Position numbers and translations under genes: made by a program. From sequence record PX915676.1: a stretch of 64,000 bases of DNA, one strand, 5' to 3'. The notes below the pieces were generated by a model. That model did no database searches and was not told the DNA's origin. It saw nothing but the letters and a program-made list of their open reading frames with translations. This stretch comes from a phage. Below are positions 10,167 to 52,859 of the stretch, piece by piece (the stretch's first letter is position 1; every line of letters starts with the position of its first letter).

Positions 10167-10463
10167 ATGACTTTAGAAGTATATAAATTCCTTTTTGTAA
10201 GCTGTTTAACTATCAGCGTTCTAGGATTTATTGTTCTCAGAAACAAAGCAGCAAGCTGGGAGAGAATGTATAAATCCCTAGTCCGAGTGGATGAGATGTA
10301 TAATGAGAAAGTTAAAGTAACACTCAACGATCTTATTATGCAAGTTGAAGACAGAAACAAACGTCTTCAGAACCTCAATCATGAAGTGTTGCGCCTTGCT
10401 CGTGCTAATGAAGACTTGCGAGTGGCTATTGCTAAACAGCAGGAGATTAACAATGAAGCATGA
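10167..10463 (+). CDS. membrane-anchored coiled-coil protein
   Basis: Track ORF 98 aa; N-terminal TM (FLFVSCLTISVLGFIVL) then charged helical region. Confidence 0.55.
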   Translation: MTLEVYKFLFVSCLTISVLGFIVLRNKAASWERMYKSLVRVDEMYNEKVKVTLNDLIMQVEDRNKRLQNLNHEVLRLARANEDLRVAIAKQQEINNEA

Positions 10464-28932: not shown

Positions 28933-29483
28933 AGAAAAAGAAGAAAGTGTTTGCATTCGATATCGAGAGTAATGCACTGTACGATGACATAACTAAAGTA
29001 TGGTGTATTTATATCTTTGATGTTGAAACTGGTGAAAGGTGGGGCTATCGGCCTCACCAAATTGAAGATGGGATTCGTAAACTTACAGAAGCAGATGTAC
29101 TAGTGGGTCATAATATTATTGACTTCGACTTACCTGCTCTGAAAAAGATGTATCCCTCTTTGATTAAATATAATTTTAACGTCTTTGACACTTTATGTCT
29201 TAGTCGATATCTTAAACCTGACCGTATTGGTGACAGTCCTGAGTATCCGAAAGGCGACCCTAGACGTGGCCCAAGAGGTCATGGTTTGAAGCAATGGGGT
29301 GAGTTCTTAGAGGAACTTAAAGGTGACTACGGTGAGCAAGAGGAAGCATGGGATGCTTTCACTGAAGATATGTTTACTTATTGTGAACAGGACGTTAACT
29401 TAACTGTTAAGGTTTATCTTTTCTTGTGTGAACTCACGGGATTTGACCCTTACGACCCACCTTCATTATATTGGAAAATGTAA
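28926..29483 (+). CDS. DNA polymerase I family 3'-5' exonuclease subunit (T7 DNAP N-terminal homolog)
   Basis: Exo I FDIESNAL, Exo [15 protein letters not shown], Exo [11 protein letters not shown] collinear with T7 gene 5 residues 1-185; GTG start with GGAG SD overlapping primase stop. Confidence 0.85.
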
Positions 29484-29484
29484 A

Positions 29485-30798
29485 ATGATTGTTATCCCGA
29501 TTAACCAAATTGAAGATAAGGTTGCTCAACAACCTGATATCACTGTTGGTCGTCACTTCATTGAACAGTTGATTAACAACAACTTGATTCCAGATGGTAT
29601 CTGTCCCATCATTACTGGTGGGGCTGTTCGTGATGCTGTCCTTAATAACATAGCTCCACATGACATTGATATCTTTATTGTCAGAGGACAAACACCAAGA
29701 ACTCAAAACACTTTCATCCCAACTGATCGTTGGCAAGAGCTTGGACGGGAGATTGAAAGTAATGTGAAGGAATGGCTAGAGTCACAAGATATTGAATATG
29801 CATCACTTCTTGCTGAAGCTACAAACGAATCCTATGCTGGGGGTTCTCAATTAACATTCACTGATATTATTGAGTTTCAGTGGAATGGGGTTCGTATCCA
29901 ATTCATGTTTAATTATCCTACTTCTATTGAAGAGGTATTGGATAATTTTCCTATGATGTGCCGTGGTGCGATGACTCTTGACAACTTATTCATGACTTCT
30001 CACGGATATTTGGCTATGACTTCCCCTTGTCCAGTGGTTGTCTCTAGTCGTGAAATCAGGTATGTTCACAAGAAGTGGCCTAACTCACAAGTGTTGAGAT
30101 TTTCCTCTCCAGCAGTTGCGCATCAATACATGGCCCAAACTCGATATCTTCCCACACCTCAGCCAGTTAGTCATCTAGTCAATGGATTAGGTCAGGTTTC
30201 TCTTATTGAAGATACAACAAGTGCTCTATATTGTGTTAACCGAGACATGAGTCGATTCTTTGGAATCCCTTATGAAGAGATTCAGATTATGTCTAGTCTT
30301 CACGGTTCTGGTCAGATTCATGCGTATTGGTCTGAGGGGTTGACAAATTTAACGACTAACACGGGTGGTGATCTGCTTGGTCGAGAAGAGGAACCTAACC
30401 GACACAATGCAATTGAAGGGGTGTTTGTAGCCCCTGCAATGCGTCGAGCACAAGAGTCACGAAGAGAAAGCCCTACTCGTAGAACATCTTTTGAAGAAGC
30501 TCTTGGTATTACAAGTGATTCTATGGAGCGATGGATGGCTAGACCCTCTCGTGGTCGACCAAACGGCTTAACTGTTAGCGCACGTCAGTTCTCTGGTCAG
30601 GGTTTCGCTGTTGGTGATATCAACGCCCCTTCTCGTGTTATCTGGACTGATGAAGGTATGGAACAAGATTTGGGAGATAGTCTCGCTGATCGCTTTATTG
30701 CTAACAACCCTGAAGTATTAGAACCTCAAACCCGTACAGTTCGGTTTGCCGATGAAGCGGGTCGTGGAATCTCTTTTGACATGGAAACAAATAACTAA
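29485..30798 (+). CDS. polymerase beta-superfamily nucleotidyltransferase (CCA-adding/poly(A) polymerase-like head domain)
   Basis: ITGGAVRDAVL...HDIDIF matches GGxVRD and DxD motifs of class II tRNA nucleotidyltransferases; remaining 350 aa unrecognised. Confidence 0.55.
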   Translation: MIVIPINQIEDKVAQQPDITVGRHFIEQLINNNLIPDGICPIITGGAVRDAVLNNIAPHDIDIFIVRGQTPRTQNTFIPTDRWQELGREIESNVKEWLESQDIEYASLLAEATNESYAGGSQLTFTDIIEFQWNGVRIQFMFNYPTSIEEVLDNFPMMCRGAMTLDNLFMTSHGYLAMTSPCPVVVSSREIRYVHKKWPNSQVLRFSSPAVAHQYMAQTRYLPTPQPVSHLVNGLGQVSLIEDTTSALYCVNRDMSRFFGIPYEEIQIMSSLHGSGQIHAYWSEGLTNLTTNTGGDLLGREEEPNRHNAIEGVFVAPAMRRAQESRRESPTRRTSFEEALGITSDSMERWMARPSRGRPNGLTVSARQFSGQGFAVGDINAPSRVIWTDEGMEQDLGDSLADRFIANNPEVLEPQTRTVRFADEAGRGISFDMETNN

Positions 30799-30807
30799 GG
30801 AATAAGA

Positions 30808-31341
30808 ATGAGTTTACTAGGAAGTATTGAACTGCATGATGTAATTGACAATGGCTATCTGGATGCGGAGCATAAGTATGTTAACGCTGCTAGTGTGGAT
30901 ATCCGTATTGGTGATACTATCCTTGTTGAAGAACAGGCTGATGGCATCGTTGATATTGATGCGAAAGAGAATCTTCAGTGGAAGGAAGTAAAGATTCCTG
31001 AAGAGGGTTTGGTTATCACTCCGGGTCAGTTCTTCTTGGCTCACTCTATGGAGGAGTTTAACCTTCCAGATAACATCTCAAGTCTGTTTGTTCTGCGTTC
31101 GTCTATGGCTCGTTGTGGTTTGAACCACCTTCACGCCGGTTGGGCAGATGCAGGATTTAATAGCAGTAAGCTGACATTTGAATTCCATAACGTAACCAAG
31201 CACCACAGCTTACGAGTTCGTGCTGGTATGCGTGTTGGTCAGATGGTTATGTTTGAGCACTCTCATGCAGGGGAACACTCCTATGCAGTGAAGGGTCGTT
31301 ATAATAACTCTGAAGGTGTGGTTGCATCTAAAGGTGTGTAA
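30808..31341 (+). CDS. dCTP deaminase family protein
   Basis: ASVDIRIGD and AGWADAGFNSSKLTFEFHN resemble dCTP deaminase/dUTPase motifs. Confidence 0.75.
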   Translation: MSLLGSIELHDVIDNGYLDAEHKYVNAASVDIRIGDTILVEEQADGIVDIDAKENLQWKEVKIPEEGLVITPGQFFLAHSMEEFNLPDNISSLFVLRSSMARCGLNHLHAGWADAGFNSSKLTFEFHNVTKHHSLRVRAGMRVGQMVMFEHSHAGEHSYAVKGRYNNSEGVVASKGV

Positions 31342-31539
31342 ATGAAAAAGTGGATTGTTCGTGTACATGATAACACGACTGGAGAGTTAGTAGCTGTAGA
31401 TTTTGTTAAGACTCGAGAACACGCACGTAGGGTCAAAAATCAATACAAGTCTACTTTTAGACTTAACAAGGTTACAATTGGAAAAGCTATTGTGAATAGC
31501 GAAGGTGCTTTTATTGCCAACAGTAAGGTTTATTATTAA
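31342..31539 (+). CDS. small protein, tandem paralog 1 of 3 (C-terminal KVYY)
   Basis: Track ORF; shares W-rich N-terminus, TRE(H/E)AR motif and SKV.YY end with next two ORFs. Confidence 0.55.
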   Translation: MKKWIVRVHDNTTGELVAVDFVKTREHARRVKNQYKSTFRLNKVTIGKAIVNSEGAFIANSKVYY

Positions 31540-31748
31540 TGAGACCGATCACTATGAGACAATTTTGGTTAGCAAAGATTAAGTGGGTATCAGGTGGCAT
31601 GACTATGACTGCACTACCCACTCGCCAACAAGCTCGAGATTTTAAAAAGACTATGCTTACTGGTGACGTGGTCAATAGTATCAGTATCCATAAGGCCAAG
31701 GAATATTCCTCTGGTCGTGTTTATATCAGCGGAAAGGTACACTACTAA
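31539..31748 (+). CDS. small protein, tandem paralog 2 of 3
   Basis: Track ORF; same pattern (ends KVHY). Confidence 0.55.
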   Translation: MRPITMRQFWLAKIKWVSGGMTMTALPTRQQARDFKKTMLTGDVVNSISIHKAKEYSSGRVYISGKVHY

Positions 31749-31957
31749 TGAAAAAGATGTGGGCTATTAGAATTGTTTGGGAACGTGAGCAACACCTAGG
31801 CAAAGATAATATCAAACTGTTTGAAACTCGTGAAGAGGCTCGTATTGCTAAGAAGGAGTTGAAGACTCTGATCGGAACTATTAAAAGTGTTGACATTCAT
31901 CGCTGGTACGAAGACCCTAGCTCGGGTTCTTTTATGTCTAAAGTAATTTATTACTGA
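31748..31957 (+). CDS. small protein, tandem paralog 3 of 3
   Basis: Track ORF; same pattern (ends KVIYY). Confidence 0.55.
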   Translation: MKKMWAIRIVWEREQHLGKDNIKLFETREEARIAKKELKTLIGTIKSVDIHRWYEDPSSGSFMSKVIYY

Positions 31958-32029
31958 TTGGTAGTAGATATGGTAACTCTCAAATGTATATAGAGTACAA
32001 TAAGAATTTGTATTTTACAGGAGAGAGTT

Positions 32030-32359
32030 ATGTTAGATTTGAGTAAAGTGGCCCCGCCCACTGAAGAGATTACAAAATCCAAGGTGATGCAACAGTTTTA
32101 TCATCGTGATATGCTTGGTCGCTTTATCAAGAATCGTGATGTTGTTGCTTGGTCTATTGGTAATCAGGGATATCTGTTGAAGGTTCTTCAGGTTACAGGT
32201 TCAACTGCTAAGCGAGTTAAGGTGTATGACCCTGAAATGGGGCGTTCTAAGTCAGTAGACCCACAGAACTGCATCGTAATTACCCAGCAGGTAATGGATA
32301 ATATTGCACGTAATGTTGCTAACTCAGTTGAACTTGATGGAGAAAACCCAAATGCATAA
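32030..32359 (+). CDS. hypothetical protein
   Basis: Track ORF 109 aa. Confidence 0.55.
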   Translation: MLDLSKVAPPTEEITKSKVMQQFYHRDMLGRFIKNRDVVAWSIGNQGYLLKVLQVTGSTAKRVKVYDPEMGRSKSVDPQNCIVITQQVMDNIARNVANSVELDGENPNA

Positions 32360-32915
32360 GAATGTCTTTGATTTACCTGAGATTGGTCGTGACAGTTATA
32401 GTATGTTAGACCGGTCCGACCTATCAATCTCTCGCCTTGAAACGATGCAAGGTATGATTAGTGGAAACAGCCTAGAACACATCCTGAGCTGCTTACAAGC
32501 TAACATGGAACTCTTGCATATCAAAGCTAAAAACTACCACTGGAACGTCTCTGGTGCAGGATTTCAGGGTGTTCATGGTATGTTTGATGAGCTGGAAGAT
32601 TACGCACGACAGGTAGGAGATCGTATTGCTGAACGTATGCGTTACCACTGTGTTAAAGTGGATGCTACAGCAGCTAACTACCTCTCTCATTCTTGGTTCT
32701 CAGAGGGTAATGCTGATCTAGACATGGACGGTATGCTCTCTGATATGTGCATGACCTTGATGTGTATTATTGAGAAGATGGATGAGTTTGATGGTGATTT
32801 AGCCACCTACCCTGTCGATCAGAGTATGCTTCAAGAAATTAATGAAGGTCTTGGCAAGTATTGCTACTTCGTCAAGAGCAACATGTCCCATTCAAGTGGT
32901 GACGTGTCTTACTAA
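32352..32915 (+). CDS. Dps-like ferritin-fold protein
   Basis: Track ORF trimmed to ATG 32352 with GGAG SD; LHIKAKNYHWNVSGAGFQGVHGMFDELEDYARQVGDRIAER matches the Dps ferroxidase-site helix pattern. Confidence 0.65.
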   Translation: MHKNVFDLPEIGRDSYSMLDRSDLSISRLETMQGMISGNSLEHILSCLQANMELLHIKAKNYHWNVSGAGFQGVHGMFDELEDYARQVGDRIAERMRYHCVKVDATAANYLSHSWFSEGNADLDMDGMLSDMCMTLMCIIEKMDEFDGDLATYPVDQSMLQEINEGLGKYCYFVKSNMSHSSGDVSY

Positions 32916-32976
32916 AAACCTCCGCCCTGTCTCCTAACCCGAGGTGGGGCGAACTTATTTATAAGGATATAGATAT

Positions 32977-33156
32977 ATGTTATCAGCAATCGTATGGGGT
33001 ATTTGGGCTATCTTTATTGGTGGTGGTATTTATTGGGCTTCTGGTAAGCTTATTGAAGAAACTCCTGATAAGAAAGGTGAGATTCAAACAGCATCAACCA
33101 TCATGGTTATCGTAGCTGTTGTTATCCCATTCCTGCTTCACCTCCTGACTGCATAA
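32977..33156 (+). CDS. small membrane protein (59 aa, two hydrophobic segments)
   Basis: ATG with AAGGA SD; below track cut-off. Confidence 0.4.
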   Translation: MLSAIVWGIWAIFIGGGIYWASGKLIEETPDKKGEIQTASTIMVIVAVVIPFLLHLLTA

Positions 33157-33164
33157 GGATTTAC

Positions 33165-33440
33165 ATGTCTAAAGTAATTAAGTTTTATAGTGATCAGTGT
33201 GCTCCATGTAAAGCAATGGCTCCTACCTTTGAGAAGGTTGTTAAGGAGTTTGATGTAGAAGTGGAAGAGATTAACATCCTTGAAGGTGATGGTCGTGAAC
33301 AAGCTGTTAAGTATGGTATACGAAGCATCCCTGCTTTTGTTGTGCCTGACCGTAACAGTGGTGCACACTACAGCCTCTCCGGTATGCAGACTGAAGCAAA
33401 CCTGAAAGCATTTTTGGACACAGCCCTGAGAAATAAGTAA
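33165..33440 (+). CDS. thioredoxin/glutaredoxin-fold protein (CxxC)
   Basis: Track ORF; active-site-like CAPC near N-terminus, about 90 aa. Confidence 0.7.
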   Translation: MSKVIKFYSDQCAPCKAMAPTFEKVVKEFDVEVEEINILEGDGREQAVKYGIRSIPAFVVPDRNSGAHYSLSGMQTEANLKAFLDTALRNK

Positions 33441-33455
33441 TAAGGATATTCACGG

Positions 33456-34112
33456 ATGAATGAACAACTACAAGCAACATTAATCGAAGCTATGGGAAGT
33501 GATCGTAGCGTAGTAAACGCAGCTCGAGTTTCCTTTGGCGTAACCCGTGAAGGTGATTTAAATGAACGTGATGAACGTCTCATCAACTTCCTCGCACGGG
33601 AAAAACACTGTACCCCATTCCGACACCCGCAAGTCAGCTTCCGATGCAAAGCACCTATTGCAATTGCGAGACAGCTGGGCAAGCATCAGGTTGGATTCTC
33701 GTGGAACGAAATGTCCCGGCGGTATAAAGATGGAGCAGTTGAAGTCTTCATCCCTAAAGAGATTTTTGCGAGACCTTCGGACCTCCATGCAGGTTCAGGG
33801 ATTCAACTCATCGACGGAGAGCGAGCTGAAGCATTAATGCTGATTAACGATGCATATGAAGCTTCTCTAGCAGCATATGACAAGTTGATTGAATTTATTG
33901 CACCAGAGCAAGCTCGATTTGTTCTTCCTCAGGGGATGATCACTGAGTGGGTGTGGACCGGTTCTTTGTATGGCTGGTTTGAGTTGTGTCGTCAGCGACT
34001 CTCCTCTCACGCTCAATATGAAGTTCGAGTGTTTGCTAAATCTGTAGACGAAGAGATGGCTAAGATCTACCCAATCTCGTGGGCAGCCCTGAAGAAAACT
34101 TTGGAGAGTTAA
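33456..34112 (+). CDS. thyX: flavin-dependent thymidylate synthase ThyX (variant motif)
   Basis: AARVSF, TPFRHPQVSFRCKAPIAIARQ, SWNEMSRRY and SHAQYEV match ThyX blocks; canonical RHR triad reads KHQ here. Confidence 0.8.
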   Translation: MNEQLQATLIEAMGSDRSVVNAARVSFGVTREGDLNERDERLINFLAREKHCTPFRHPQVSFRCKAPIAIARQLGKHQVGFSWNEMSRRYKDGAVEVFIPKEIFARPSDLHAGSGIQLIDGERAEALMLINDAYEASLAAYDKLIEFIAPEQARFVLPQGMITEWVWTGSLYGWFELCRQRLSSHAQYEVRVFAKSVDEEMAKIYPISWAALKKTLES

Positions 34113-34495: not shown

Positions 34496-34661
34496 CTTCT
34501 GTAAGAAAGAGAAACCTATCGCCAACTTCAAACCTAACCCTGTAACTGGTCTGACCCATGTCATGTGCCACTCTTGCAGGATATATCTTGAAACAAAGCA
34601 CACTATCAATAGGTTGCACTATTATCACCCAACAACATTCAAATTTAAGGTTGTGAAATGA
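34476..34661 (+). CDS. small zinc-ribbon protein
   Basis: Track ORF trimmed to ATG 34476; CSFC...CHSC. Confidence 0.45.
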   Translation: MEKKVCSFCKKEKPIANFKPNPVTGLTHVMCHSCRIYLETKHTINRLHYYHPTTFKFKVVK

Positions 34662-34981
34662 TTGACAGTAATACATTTAGGACTTCAAATGGAAGTGAAA
34701 TAAGTCCCGCTGAAGTAATCAATCGGCATAGAAGGCAATTGATCATCCATTCCTACTTGTATTACTGGTTGGATGACCCTATCTGGTCTGATGATAAATG
34801 GCAACAAGTTGCTAATGATCTAGCGGAGCTGCAAGCTCTGTATCCAGAACCTACTGGAGTCTTTGACAACGAGTTTAAAGATTGGGATGGTTCTACAGGT
34901 ATGCATCTCCCACATAACGAAGCTGTTGCTTGTATGGCGACAGCTGTTTACAGACTTCATAAAGAGGTTAACGTCGCATGA
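34658..34981 (+). CDS. hypothetical protein
   Basis: Track ORF 107 aa. Confidence 0.55.
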   Translation: MIDSNTFRTSNGSEISPAEVINRHRRQLIIHSYLYYWLDDPIWSDDKWQQVANDLAELQALYPEPTGVFDNEFKDWDGSTGMHLPHNEAVACMATAVYRLHKEVNVA

Positions 34982-36839: not shown

Positions 36840-37094
36840 ATGTCTATTGTAAAAATCGTAAATATTTTTGATGTAACCAGAGATGGCAAGATTGTTAAGT
36901 GGACTTTCACTAACCACCACAACAAATCAAACAAGATCATCGAACGGATGATTGAGATTAACCCAAAAACAGCTCGCACTAATGTAATCCTTCGTGGTGC
37001 TGATGGTAAATTCATTTCTTATAAAAACAAAGACGTAGAAAAATCTTTCCGTGTTGCAGTAGAAAATCTCATCCCATTCCCTAAAGGAGTTTAA
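36840..37094 (+). CDS. hypothetical protein, paralog pair member 1
   Basis: Track ORF; C-terminal KTARTNVILRGADGKFISY...PFPKG shared with next ORF. Confidence 0.55.
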   Translation: MSIVKIVNIFDVTRDGKIVKWTFTNHHNKSNKIIERMIEINPKTARTNVILRGADGKFISYKNKDVEKSFRVAVENLIPFPKGV

Positions 37095-37095
37095 T

Positions 37096-37380
37096 ATGAA
37101 TAAGTTAGCTATGGTTCAAATTCGGGACACATACCCTAACCGCCCGGAGCAGAAACCGCGTACTTGGTCTTATCTGTTGGCTGAAAGTAAGACTATTGAC
37201 AAATACGCTGTAGGGGTTGATGCTATTCCAACTAGTATCACATTGCTCCCTCACAAAACAGCCAGAACCCATGTGATGTTACGTGATAGCAAAGGTAAGT
37301 TTATCTCTTATCGTGATTCACGAATCAATAATGAGATTAAATCTGCTATGGAATTTTTGATGCCATTCCCAAAAGGTTGA
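37096..37380 (+). CDS. hypothetical protein, paralog pair member 2
   Basis: Track ORF; KTARTHVMLRDSKGKFISY...PFPKG. Confidence 0.55.
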   Translation: MNKLAMVQIRDTYPNRPEQKPRTWSYLLAESKTIDKYAVGVDAIPTSITLLPHKTARTHVMLRDSKGKFISYRDSRINNEIKSAMEFLMPFPKG

Positions 37381-42654: not shown

Positions 42655-43132
42655 AGAACCTGTAGTTTATAAAGACTCTATCAGAGATCAATATAATGAG
42701 ATGTTAAAGAAACAAGCTGATTCTAATCTTCGTTATCAGAGGATAGTAGAAAAATCTAATTTTAAAGGTTTACTTGAATGGTAACTTATATTCTTTACTT
42801 TTTAGCTTTCTTAGGAATAATCTTTTTATCTATTATTCTTGAATTTGGTTTAAGTAAGTTAGTTAATTATTTAGGTAATAAGTAATTAATATTCTTTTAA
42901 ATAGAGAATCAAAGTCCCTAGGAGTCCCTACAACCTAAATCAAGGATTCCTTAATTCTCTATTTTTATCTCGCAGGTGGCTCCTGCCCTTCGGTACTTGC
43001 AAGGGATTCTGTGAATTGCCCAATATACAAGCCTGCAATAACTTTATCAGCTATACAATATATACATTACTAGTGTGTTATATCTACTACCAAAGATACT
43101 TATATTATATAGTACTCTTATCGGTATAAGCG

Positions 43133-52812: not shown

Positions 52813-52850
52813 AACGTCTCCTTTTATAAATAAAAATGTCCTACCCCCTA

Positions 52851-52859
52851 TATACATTA
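52851..52859 (-). promoter_or_regulatory. TAATGTATA motif (minus strand)
   Basis: Reverse complement of TATACATTA, about 40 nt upstream of the 1473 aa gene start. Confidence 0.45.

What the first reader, a model, noticed from the sequence alone, without database searches (positions are those of the whole stretch)
32352..32915. Phage-encoded Dps-like ferritin beside thioredoxin and dNTP-metabolism genes
A Dps/ferritin-fold protein is an unusual phage cargo. Together with the CxxC thioredoxin-fold protein, ThyX and dCTP deaminase it suggests management of iron/redox state during nucleotide synthesis.
Basis: partly seen in the sequence, partly recalled or inferred. Interest (0 to 1): 0.4.

Follow-up and report, generated by a model that had tools for sequence, protein, structure and literature searches.

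The report
Dps mini-ferritin gene of a Kuravirus phage
The gene is a real Dps-type iron-caging protein that is conserved in this group of E. coli phages and was already noted in the literature, though what it does during infection has never been tested.

Summary
The window is a phiEco32-like (Kuravirus, Gordonclarkvirinae) E. coli podophage. ORF 32352-32915 (+, 187 aa) is a real gene under strong purifying selection (dN/dS 0.03-0.06). It belongs to the Dps (dodecameric mini-ferritin) family. Pfam Ferritin scores above its threshold, all 36 sequence matches in PDB are Dps proteins, and the 50 best structural matches listed for the AlphaFold model are all Dps-family proteins. The ferroxidase ligands H63/H75/D79/D90/E94 (plus W64) are invariant and map exactly onto E. 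coli Dps H51/H63/D67/D78/E82.

The protein is acidic and has no Lys-rich tail, so the database labels "DNA binding protein" and "integrase" are unsupported. It is not a recent copy of host dps.

The Dps domain was reported for SU10 (2014) and Privateer (2021), so the identification is already known; the function is untested.

New detail from this work: the gene is second in a two-gene unit. A phiEco32-type middle-promoter motif (31983-31992) precedes a conserved 109-aa partner of unknown function (32030-32359), which overlaps the Dps start. A conserved hairpin (32923-32951) follows the Dps stop.

The proposed link to nucleotide synthesis is only contextual. ThyX and dCTP deaminase are not iron enzymes, although related phages place NrdD or ATP-cone genes next to Dps.

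The parts
31983..31992 (+). phiEco32-type middle-promoter motif AATGTATATA, 38 nt upstream of the partner ORF
   Evidence: The motif tAATGTATAtA is described for phiEco32 and SU10 middle and late promoters, and a sigma-70 promoter is reported upstream of SU10 CDS68. The window has 4 matches against 0.53 expected by chance. The surrounding 45 nt are nearly invariant in relatives whose coding regions have dS above 2.
32030..32359 (+). Conserved partner ORF 'X' (109 aa, phrog_10984, function unknown). Its end overlaps the Dps start by 8 nt.
   Evidence: PHROG match at 1.9e-64 with no Pfam hit. Homologues at 31-37% identity (E 1e-14 to 1e-17) lie immediately upstream of Dps in Privateer, GAP52 and LAh_8, and follow the thioredoxin gene in SE131. 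The SU10 paper lists CDS68 among the CDSs present in all five C3 phages; that this ORF is its equivalent is inferred from its position and the matching 12.2 kDa mass. No PDB or PADLOC match. The AlphaFold model is unreliable, pLDDT 46.7.
32352..32915 (+). Dps-family mini-ferritin gene (187 aa, 21.2 kDa, pI 4.7)
   Evidence: Pfam Ferritin 31.1 bits; PHROG 3636 at 2.7e-55; 36 PDB sequence matches, all Dps; AlphaFold pLDDT 80.8; the 50 best Foldseek PDB matches listed are all Dps-family proteins.
32352..32483 (+). N-terminal extension (aa 1-44), specific to the Kuravirus-like clade. It is acidic (net charge -3, one Lys) and has a predicted helix at aa 19-37 with invariant R28.
   Evidence: Alignments A1 and A2, composition, low-confidence helix in the model. 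It evolves faster than the core: dN 0.34 against 0.08.
32538..32633 (+). Codons for the ferroxidase-centre residues H63, W64, H75, D79, D90 and E94
   Evidence: These residues are invariant in 15 close and 16 distant homologues. BLASTP aligns them to E. coli Dps H51, W52, H63, D67, D78 and E82.
32923..32951 (+). Terminator-like or attenuator hairpin directly after the Dps stop codon (11-bp stem, 7 G-C pairs)
   Evidence: Consensus scan and RNA fold, -20.5 kcal/mol, z = -2.0. The stem is conserved in relatives; L008 has a different stem sequence that is still self-complementary and has a better T-run.
32977..33156 (+). 59-aa hydrophobic (probably membrane) protein between Dps and thioredoxin, phrog_9296
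   Evidence: It has no counterpart among the ORFs compared from Privateer, GAP52, SE131, LAh_8 and Gilson.
33165..33440 (+). Thioredoxin (CAPC motif)
   Evidence: Pfam PF00085 at 2.7e-13. Reported as conserved in all C3 phages.
33456..34112 (+). Flavin-dependent thymidylate synthase ThyX
   Evidence: Pfam PF02511 at 1.2e-43.
30808..31341 (+). dCTP deaminase, upstream of the middle promoter at the end of the early block
   Evidence: Pfam PF22769 at 3.6e-34. Gene classes as given in the SU10 paper.

Best explanation
ORF 32352-32915 encodes a genuine Dps-family protein. The conserved ligands point to the usual Dps chemistry. By analogy with solved Dps proteins, it should form a 12-subunit hollow cage with di-iron ferroxidase centres at the subunit dimer interfaces. 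H63, H75 and D79 of one subunit would pair with D90 and E94 of its partner. Such centres bind Fe(II), oxidise it (preferentially with H2O2) and store it as a ferric core, which removes both reactants of Fenton chemistry.

The gene is second in a promoter-proximal two-gene unit: middle promoter, partner ORF X, Dps, then a hairpin. It should therefore be switched on with the DNA polymerase, thioredoxin and ThyX genes of the middle block.

The most likely role is to lower free iron and peroxide in the infected cell. That would protect replicating phage DNA and oxidation-sensitive enzymes; in the ancestor these probably included an anaerobic ribonucleotide reductase.

Shown here: family membership, fold, intact metal ligands, purifying selection and operon anatomy. 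Shown by others: the protein is made. Inferred: the dodecamer, ferroxidase activity, preference for H2O2 and the physiological role. Direct DNA binding of the E. coli Dps type is unlikely.
For: Family and fold:
- Pfam PF00210 above its threshold; PHROG 3636 at 2.7e-55.
- All 36 PDB sequence matches are Dps proteins.
- The AlphaFold model (pLDDT 80.8) has four long helices plus a short helix in the BC loop (aa 107-112) and no fifth C-terminal helix.
- The 50 best Foldseek PDB matches listed are all Dps-family proteins, with target TM-scores 0.72-0.92.

Active site:
- K60, H63, W64, H75, D79, D90 and E94 are invariant from Kuravirus-like phages through Grimontviridae, Lahexavirus and a Streptomyces phage to E. 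coli Dps.
- Their spacing is identical to that of the E. coli ligands.

Selection and expression:
- dN/dS 0.025-0.06.
- A full-length copy in 98 related phage records.
- Six peptides and 35.8% coverage in SU10; also detected in Privateer.

Timing:
- Middle-promoter motif at 31983-31992.
- 8-nt overlap with ORF X.
- Conserved hairpin after the stop codon.

Context:
- The gene lies among replication and nucleotide-metabolism genes in this window and in relatives, beside NrdD, NrdG or ATP-cone genes in some.
- Other authors proposed the same antioxidant role for Dps genes in Lactobacillus and gut phages.
Against: - No biochemical or genetic data exist for any phage Dps in the literature I could search.
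- Oligomeric state could not be predicted with the tools available.
- NCBIfam Dps equivalog models score far below their cut-offs (34.5 against 114 bits), so this is a divergent subfamily, not an orthologue of host Dps.
- The protein is unusually rich in Met (8%) and Cys (5 residues; E. coli Dps has none). The clade-specific N-terminal extension and the coupled partner X are unexplained, so the protein may do something beyond classical Dps chemistry.
- The host already has its own dps, so the benefit of a phage copy is not obvious.
Confidence: 0.6

Rival explanations
1. It is mainly a DNA-binding or nucleoid-compacting protein, as most database records call it. On this view it coats phage or host DNA, and iron chemistry is secondary.
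For: The family name and PHROG 3636 label are "DNA binding protein". By established knowledge, E. coli Dps condenses DNA. The gene lies among replication genes.
Against: The protein has pI 4.7 and its core has net charge -11. The N-terminal 44 residues have net charge -3 with one Lys, whereas the E. coli Dps tail has net +3 and is Lys-rich. The C-terminus is short and not basic. By established knowledge, several Dps proteins without basic tails do not bind DNA. The ferroxidase ligands are under absolute conservation, which a purely architectural role would not require.
Confidence: 0.15
2. It is a dedicated accessory of nucleotide synthesis. It would protect or supply iron to an oxygen- or peroxide-sensitive deoxynucleotide-producing enzyme, working with the phage thioredoxin.
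For: - The order Trx, X, Dps, NrdD occurs in GAP52.
- Privateer has Trx, X, Dps and then a stand-alone ATP-cone ORF; SE131 also has an ATP-cone ORF directly after Dps.
- LAh_8 has NrdD and NrdG upstream and an ATP-cone ORF downstream of X-Dps.
- Streptomyces phages of the Gilson type have an RNR and ThyX within 2-3 kb of Dps.

- Lactobacillus phage Dps also lies near DNA-metabolism genes.
Against: I found no RNR or ATP-cone gene in this window, yet Dps is retained under strong selection. By established biochemistry, ThyX (FAD/NADPH) and dCTP deaminase are not iron enzymes. The C3-phage contexts share ancestry (their DNA polymerases and primase-helicases are highly similar), so their gene order is not independent evidence. 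Most other viral Dps loci showed no such neighbours, although the search used was of limited sensitivity.
Confidence: 0.15
3. It is a virion-associated protein, packed in or bound to the prolate head, rather than a purely intracellular enzyme. That would resemble ferritin-like cargo in encapsulin shells.
For: Dps was detected by mass spectrometry of CsCl-purified Privateer virions. BFVD holds phage proteins named "Prohead protease" that contain a Dps-fold domain. In IMG/VR loci L031, L050 and L051 the Dps gene lies in the head module just downstream of the portal gene.
Against: Here the gene is the second gene of the middle (replication) transcription unit, not a late gene. The SU10 proteomics sample was only PEG-precipitated and also contained DNA polymerase, PhoH and the sigma factor. 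The SU10 cryo-EM and mass-spectrometry study names gp20-24 as the head-internal proteins and does not mention Dps. A stable, dense 12-mer cage could simply co-purify with virions (inference).
Confidence: 0.08
4. It is an integrase, as many GenBank records of related phages label it.
For: The label "integrase" or "putative integrase" appears in ES17, IME267, KBNP1711, DE5 and other records.
Against: The only Pfam hit at E up to 0.1 is Ferritin; no recombinase family matched. The fold is a four-helix bundle identical to Dps. The label is a propagated annotation error.
Confidence: 0.01

Closest known systems
Bacterial Dps / mini-ferritins (E. coli Dps 1DPS, M. smegmatis Dps2 2Z90, B. anthracis Dlp-2 1JIG, B. 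subtilis MrgA 2CHP)
   Same: Same four-helix bundle with a short helix in the BC loop; rmsd 1.1-2.6 A to these structures. Same ferroxidase ligand set and spacing: H-x12-H-x3-D-x10-D-x3-E, with the conserved Trp next to the first His. Acidic residues are present in the loop between helices C and D, where Dps pores are lined by Asp (read from the sequence; not tested).
   Different: Only 19-27% identical to these proteins. BLASTP against host E. coli Dps aligns only the 41-residue ferroxidase region. It falls below the NCBIfam Dps equivalog cut-offs. It has a 44-residue acidic N-terminal extension instead of a Lys-rich tail, 5 Cys and 8% Met. It is translationally coupled to a phage-specific partner ORF.
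Dps-domain proteins of C3-morphotype podophages (SU10 CDS67, phiEco32 and NJ01 orthologues, Privateer QIN94861, SE131 gp090, GAP52_062; PHROG 3636)
   Same: Orthologues: 96-100% identical in Kuravirus phages, 38-45% in Grimontviridae, 30% in Lahexavirus. They lie in the same replication and nucleotide-metabolism block, with the same upstream partner X. These are what the literature already describes.
   Different: The Grimontviridae and Lahexavirus versions lack the N-terminal extension. They are followed by an ATP-cone ORF or by NrdD, where this window has a 59-aa membrane protein followed by thioredoxin.
Dps-like genes of other phages (Lactobacillus myophages such as Semele and LP65, Streptomyces Gilson-type phages, the gut 'Gratiaviridae')
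   Same: Stand-alone Dps-fold proteins carried by lytic phages, often near DNA-metabolism genes. Their authors proposed roles in iron and peroxide detoxification.
   Different: They appear to be separate lineages: 13-29% identity where aligned, and the two tblastn queries retrieve mostly different genera. They lack partner X.
24-subunit ferritins and bacterioferritins
   Same: Same ferritin-like superfamily four-helix bundle; the Pfam family PF00210 covers both.
   Different: The model has no fifth (E) helix. The conserved ligands follow the Dps inter-subunit pattern. None of the 50 best structural matches listed is a 24-mer ferritin.

Membership tests
Dps (DNA protection during starvation) / dodecameric mini-ferritin | Significant sequence similarity to the family | tested here: met
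   Pfam PF00210 31.1 bits against a cut-off of 24.5, matching aa 55-108 only. All 36 PDB phmmer matches are Dps proteins, best 2.4e-9. A profile search of 1.84 billion representatives found 3,392 hits at E up to 1e-3; the ten listed hits scanned with Pfam, apart from one artefact, all have a Ferritin domain.
Dps (DNA protection during starvation) / dodecameric mini-ferritin | Four-helix bundle with a short helix in the long BC loop and no C-terminal E helix | tested here: met
   AlphaFold model pLDDT 80.8, with helices at 41-65, 72-98, 107-112 (short), 125-150 and 154-177. The 50 best Foldseek PDB matches listed are all Dps-family proteins, probability 1.00.
Dps (DNA protection during starvation) / dodecameric mini-ferritin | Inter-subunit ferroxidase centre ligands (two His and an Asp from one subunit, Asp and Glu from the other) with the adjacent Trp | tested here: met
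   H63, W64, H75, D79, D90 and E94 are invariant and align to E. coli Dps H51, W52, H63, D67, D78 and E82. That they meet across a dimer interface is inferred, not modelled.
Dps (DNA protection during starvation) / dodecameric mini-ferritin | Assembly into a 12-subunit hollow cage with 23 symmetry | not testable with these tools
   Only monomer prediction was available. This needs a multimer prediction, SEC-MALS or cryo-EM.
Dps (DNA protection during starvation) / dodecameric mini-ferritin | Fe(II) oxidation by H2O2 or O2 and formation of an iron core | not testable with these tools
   Biochemical assay required.
E. coli-type Dps (NCBIfam NF006975 equivalog) | Score above the equivalog cut-off, i.e. 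orthology to host Dps | tested here: not met
   34.5 bits against a cut-off of 114. tblastn with E. coli Dps retrieves no Escherichia phage record.
E. coli-type Dps (NCBIfam NF006975 equivalog) | Lys-rich flexible N-terminal tail that mediates DNA binding | tested here: not met
   Residues 1-44 have net charge -3 with one Lys; the whole protein has pI 4.7.
24-mer ferritin / bacterioferritin | Fifth (E) helix, and structural similarity closest to 24-mer ferritins | tested here: not met
   No helix after aa 177 in the model. The conserved ligands follow the Dps pattern. None of the 50 best structural matches listed is a 24-mer ferritin. The intra-subunit di-iron motif was not examined directly.
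Tyrosine/serine integrase (label in many GenBank records) | Recombinase catalytic domain | tested here: not met
   No recombinase family among Pfam hits at E up to 0.1. The fold is a ferritin-like bundle.

The most novel reading that the evidence does not exclude
X and Dps may form a dedicated two-protein device rather than a simple antioxidant. On this reading the phage-specific partner X and the clade-specific N-terminal extension direct the Dps cage to phage DNA or to the prolate head. The cage would then be a virion-associated, ferritin-like cargo, comparable to ferritin-like proteins inside HK97-fold encapsulin shells. Three observations leave this open: Dps was detected in CsCl-purified Privateer virions, Dps-fold domains occur in proteins named prohead protease, and Dps genes lie in the head modules of other uncultured phages.
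Probability: 0.08. Interest if true: 0.65.

Novelty: already known. Interest (0 to 1): 0.25.

Why it matters
As an identification it adds little. The Dps domain of this gene was published for SU10 in 2014 and Privateer in 2021, and it has its own PHROG family. The analysis does correct two widespread labels ("integrase", "DNA binding protein").

It also sets out a testable system. A lytic coliphage keeps a divergent Dps with an intact ferroxidase site under strong purifying selection. The gene is at the head of the middle operon and is coupled to an unknown conserved partner. Closely related BASEL phages (Bas86-94, for example SkaterBoy Bas90) now plate on E. coli K-12, so a deletion and stress experiment is feasible.

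Such an experiment would show whether phages manage iron and peroxide in the infected cell. That question has been raised repeatedly from genome annotation but has never been tested.

Tried and rejected
- **Host origin:** rejected. BLASTP to E. coli Dps aligns only 41 residues, and tblastn with E. coli Dps finds no Escherichia phage.
- **Integrase annotation:** rejected.
- **Identity of partner X:** no Pfam, PDB-profile or PADLOC match. The homologue search returned only relatives at 73% identity or more, and the AlphaFold model had pLDDT 46.7. I did not use it for a fold search because the result would be meaningless.
- **RNR or ATP-cone genes in the window:** none found.
- **Nucleotide-metabolism neighbours of Dps in 51 IMG/VR loci:** tblastn gave hits only in the C3 supergroup, the Gilson-type Streptomyces phages and one gut-phage group. 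The negatives are weak because the queries were distant.
- **SU10 proteomics as evidence for virion association:** rejected. The sample was only PEG-precipitated.
- **The phiEco32 genome paper (PMC2587145):** could not be read.
- **Literature on a tested phage Dps:** nothing found.
- **P0032 (1,156 aa, 20 matched stretches):** appears to be a repetitive-sequence artefact, judged from its many short matches to unrelated Pfam families.

Full report
**1. What the window is.** A 6-kb stretch around the finding is 93-97% identical to about 100 Escherichia and Shigella phage records. These include FS2B, phiEc_1, SkaterBoy_Bas90, MN03, NJ01 and SU10. They are the prolate-headed (C3 morphotype) phiEco32-like podophages, genus Kuravirus and relatives in the subfamily Gordonclarkvirinae.

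**2. Checking the observation.**
- An ORF ends at 32915.
- ATG 32352 is preceded by GGAG at a 9-nt spacing; the alternative starts have no such site.
- The predicted mass of 21.2 kDa equals the value listed for SU10 CDS67.
- Some annotation pipelines use a longer start: Bas90 has a 603-nt CDS.
- 98 phage records hold a full-length copy at 80% identity or more.
- dN/dS against five relatives is 0.025-0.06, including two where synonymous sites are saturated (dS about 2).
- SU10 proteomics found six peptides covering 35.8% of the protein.

The feature is real and lies at the stated coordinates.

**3. What it is.**
- Pfam Ferritin (PF00210) scores 31.1 bits against a cut-off of 24.5, but only over aa 55-108.
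- PHROG 3636, labelled "DNA binding protein", matches at 2.7e-55.
- All 36 sequence matches in PDB are Dps-family proteins. The best is M. smegmatis Dps2 at 2.4e-9, aligned over aa 51-176.
- An AlphaFold model built on 15 homologues has mean pLDDT 80.8, with most 10-residue blocks of the core above 90. It shows helices at 41-65, 72-98, a short one at 107-112, 125-150 and 154-177. This is the Dps layout: four long helices plus a short helix in the BC loop, with no fifth helix.
- The 50 best Foldseek matches in PDB are all Dps-family proteins, with target TM-scores 0.72-0.92.
- NCBIfam Dps equivalog models score far below their cut-offs.
- An exhaustive profile search found only 7 clusters at E below 1e-30, then 3,392 hits at E up to 1e-3.

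The protein therefore belongs to a small, divergent, phage-borne branch of the Dps family.

**4. Active site.**
- I checked my recalled E. coli Dps sequence against PDB; it is identical to 1F30.
- BLASTP aligns phage residues 55-95 to E. coli residues 43-83. This places H63, W64, H75, D79, D90 and E94 on E. coli H51, W52, H63, D67, D78 and E82. By established knowledge of the family, these are the ferroxidase-centre ligands and the neighbouring Trp.
- The residues are invariant in 15 homologues down to 48% identity.
- They are also invariant in a wider set that includes Privateer, SE131, GAP52, Aeromonas phage LAh_8, Streptomyces phage Gilson and E. coli Dps.

The iron-oxidising site is therefore almost certainly functional. 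That it forms across a dimer interface inside a 12-mer is inferred by analogy.

**5. What it probably is not.**
- The protein has pI 4.7. Residues 1-44 have net charge -3 with one Lys, whereas the E. coli Dps tail is Lys-rich with net +3. The usual DNA-binding element is therefore missing, and the label "DNA binding protein" comes from the family name rather than from evidence.
- Many GenBank records call the orthologue "integrase". That is wrong.
- It is not a recent copy of host dps. Only 41 residues align by BLASTP, and tblastn with E. coli Dps retrieves no Escherichia phage.
- Some features remain unexplained. The N-terminal extension is specific to the Kuravirus-like clade, has an invariant R28 and a low-confidence helix at aa 19-37, and evolves faster than the core. 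The protein also has 8% Met and five Cys.

**6. Anatomy of the locus.**
- The 72-nt gap upstream of ORF 32030-32359 contains AATGTATATA at 31983-31992. This matches the motif tAATGTATAtA reported for phiEco32 and SU10 middle and late promoters. The SU10 paper also places a sigma-70 promoter upstream of CDS68, the first middle gene.
- The motif occurs four times in the window against 0.53 expected by chance.
- The surrounding sequence is nearly invariant in relatives whose coding regions are saturated at synonymous sites.
- ORF 32030-32359 ("X", 109 aa, phrog_10984) overlaps the Dps start codon by 8 nt.
- Directly after the Dps stop codon is an 11-bp hairpin at 32923-32951. Relatives conserve the stem, and one (L008) has a different but still complementary stem with a stronger T-run.

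The unit is therefore promoter, X, Dps, hairpin. It sits at the head of the middle (replication) genes and is followed by a 59-aa membrane protein, thioredoxin and ThyX. dCTP deaminase lies upstream of the promoter, at the end of the early block.

**7. The partner and the wider context.**
- Homologues of X (31-37% identity, E 1e-14 to 1e-17) lie immediately upstream of Dps, with 1-4 nt overlaps, in Privateer, GAP52 and LAh_8. In SE131 the X homologue follows thioredoxin.
- X has no Pfam, PDB or PADLOC match, and its AlphaFold model is unreliable.
- Downstream of Dps, GAP52 has a full-length anaerobic ribonucleotide reductase gene, NrdD. Privateer, SE131 and LAh_8 have a stand-alone ATP-cone ORF there, and the Privateer and SE131 ORFs match the N-terminus of GAP52 NrdD. 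LAh_8 also has NrdD and NrdG just upstream.
- I found no RNR or ATP-cone gene in this window.
- These phages share highly similar polymerases and primase-helicases, so their gene order reflects common descent.
- Independent lineages give weak support. Gilson-type Streptomyces phages have an RNR and ThyX within 2-3 kb of Dps. Lactobacillus phage Dps lies near DNA-metabolism genes.

**8. Mechanism.** The best-supported account is classical Dps chemistry deployed by the phage at the onset of replication. A cage takes up Fe(II), oxidises it at the conserved centres (preferentially with H2O2, by analogy with bacterial Dps) and stores it. This suppresses hydroxyl-radical damage to replicating DNA and to sensitive enzymes.
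- I rate the family and active-site part at about 0.95.
- I rate the physiological role at about 0.5.

It does not explain why the gene is retained in a phage without an RNR. It is also not supported by ThyX or dCTP deaminase, which are not iron enzymes (established biochemistry).

**9. Virion association.**
- The SU10 sample was only PEG-precipitated and contained many non-structural proteins, so it shows expression only.
- Privateer used CsCl-purified particles and still detected Dps.
- The SU10 cryo-EM study lists gp20-24 as the head-internal proteins and does not mention Dps.
- BFVD contains phage proteins named "Prohead protease" that have a Dps-fold domain.
- Three IMG/VR contigs carry Dps in the head module, after the portal gene.

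This makes a capsid-associated Dps conceivable in some phages. For this one, its position in the middle operon argues against it.

**10. Novelty.**
- The Dps domain of this gene was reported for SU10 in 2014, together with thioredoxin and CDS68 as genes shared by all C3 phages. It was reported again for Privateer in 2021, which noted that the function was unverified.
- Phage Dps genes are also described for Lactobacillus and gut phages.
- I found no experimental study of a phage Dps.

Verdict: the finding is correct but already known. The residue-level check, the operon anatomy and the conserved partner are useful refinements.

Noticed in passing
window 32352-32915 and GenBank records of relatives (ES17, IME267, KBNP1711, DE5, EK5, and others): The orthologue is labelled "integrase" or "putative integrase" in many deposited genomes. 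The protein has only a ferritin-like domain, so this is a propagated annotation error.
   Followed up: yes
L002:5398-5694, L003:5411-5710, L004:4429-4701 (Privateer, SE131, LAh_8): Stand-alone ATP-cone ORFs of 90-99 aa (Pfam PF03477) lie directly downstream of Dps. The Privateer and SE131 ORFs match the N-terminus of GAP52 NrdD, and GAP52 has the full NrdD gene at that position. They could be remnants of NrdD or free nucleotide-sensing regulators.
   Followed up: partly
L031:7917-8411, L050:7890-8405, L051:7566-8486 (IMG/VR contigs); BFVD entries A0A6J7XDU5, A0A6J7WPK9, A0A6J7WIS1: In some uncultured phages the Dps gene lies in the head module: portal, an 830-930 aa protein, a small ORF, Dps, a small ORF, a roughly 470 aa protein. 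Some predicted viral proteins named "Prohead protease" contain a Dps-fold domain. The L051 Dps has a 145-aa N-terminal extension.
   Followed up: partly
window 31342-31957: Three tandem ORFs of 65-69 aa with no Pfam hit. By eye they look like paralogues, sharing a T-R-E/Q-x-A-R stretch and a C-terminal K-V-x-Y ending.
   Followed up: no
window 36840-37380: Two adjacent ORFs (84 and 94 aa) share a long similar C-terminal stretch (KTART.V.LR...GKFISY...FPKG). This appears to be a tandem duplication of unknown function.
   Followed up: no
window 34658-34981: A 107-aa ORF consists only of the NAD+-binding Ia domain of NAD-dependent DNA ligase (Pfam Nlig-Ia, 3.7e-35). Some records annotate it as "DNA ligase", although no ligase catalytic domain is present in this ORF.
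   Followed up: no
window 10265-10274 (+), 43059-43068 (-), 52849-52858 (-): Three further copies of the phiEco32-type promoter motif AATGTATAWA (4 in the window against 0.53 expected). They are probably the other middle and late promoters.
   Followed up: partly
window 29428-30798 and 30808-31341: A 456-aa nucleotidyltransferase (phrog_12715; weak match to the poly(A) polymerase head domain) lies next to dCTP deaminase. The BASEL paper suggests this pair may underlie a DNA modification that would explain the restriction resistance of these phages.
   Followed up: no
window 32733-32768 (aa 128-139 of Dps): Helix C carries a Met- and Cys-rich stretch, MLSDMCMTLMCI. M128, D131 and M134 are invariant in the Kuravirus-like clade and C133 is nearly so; the more distant phage Dps proteins have DMVxTL here. 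Its significance is unknown.
   Followed up: no
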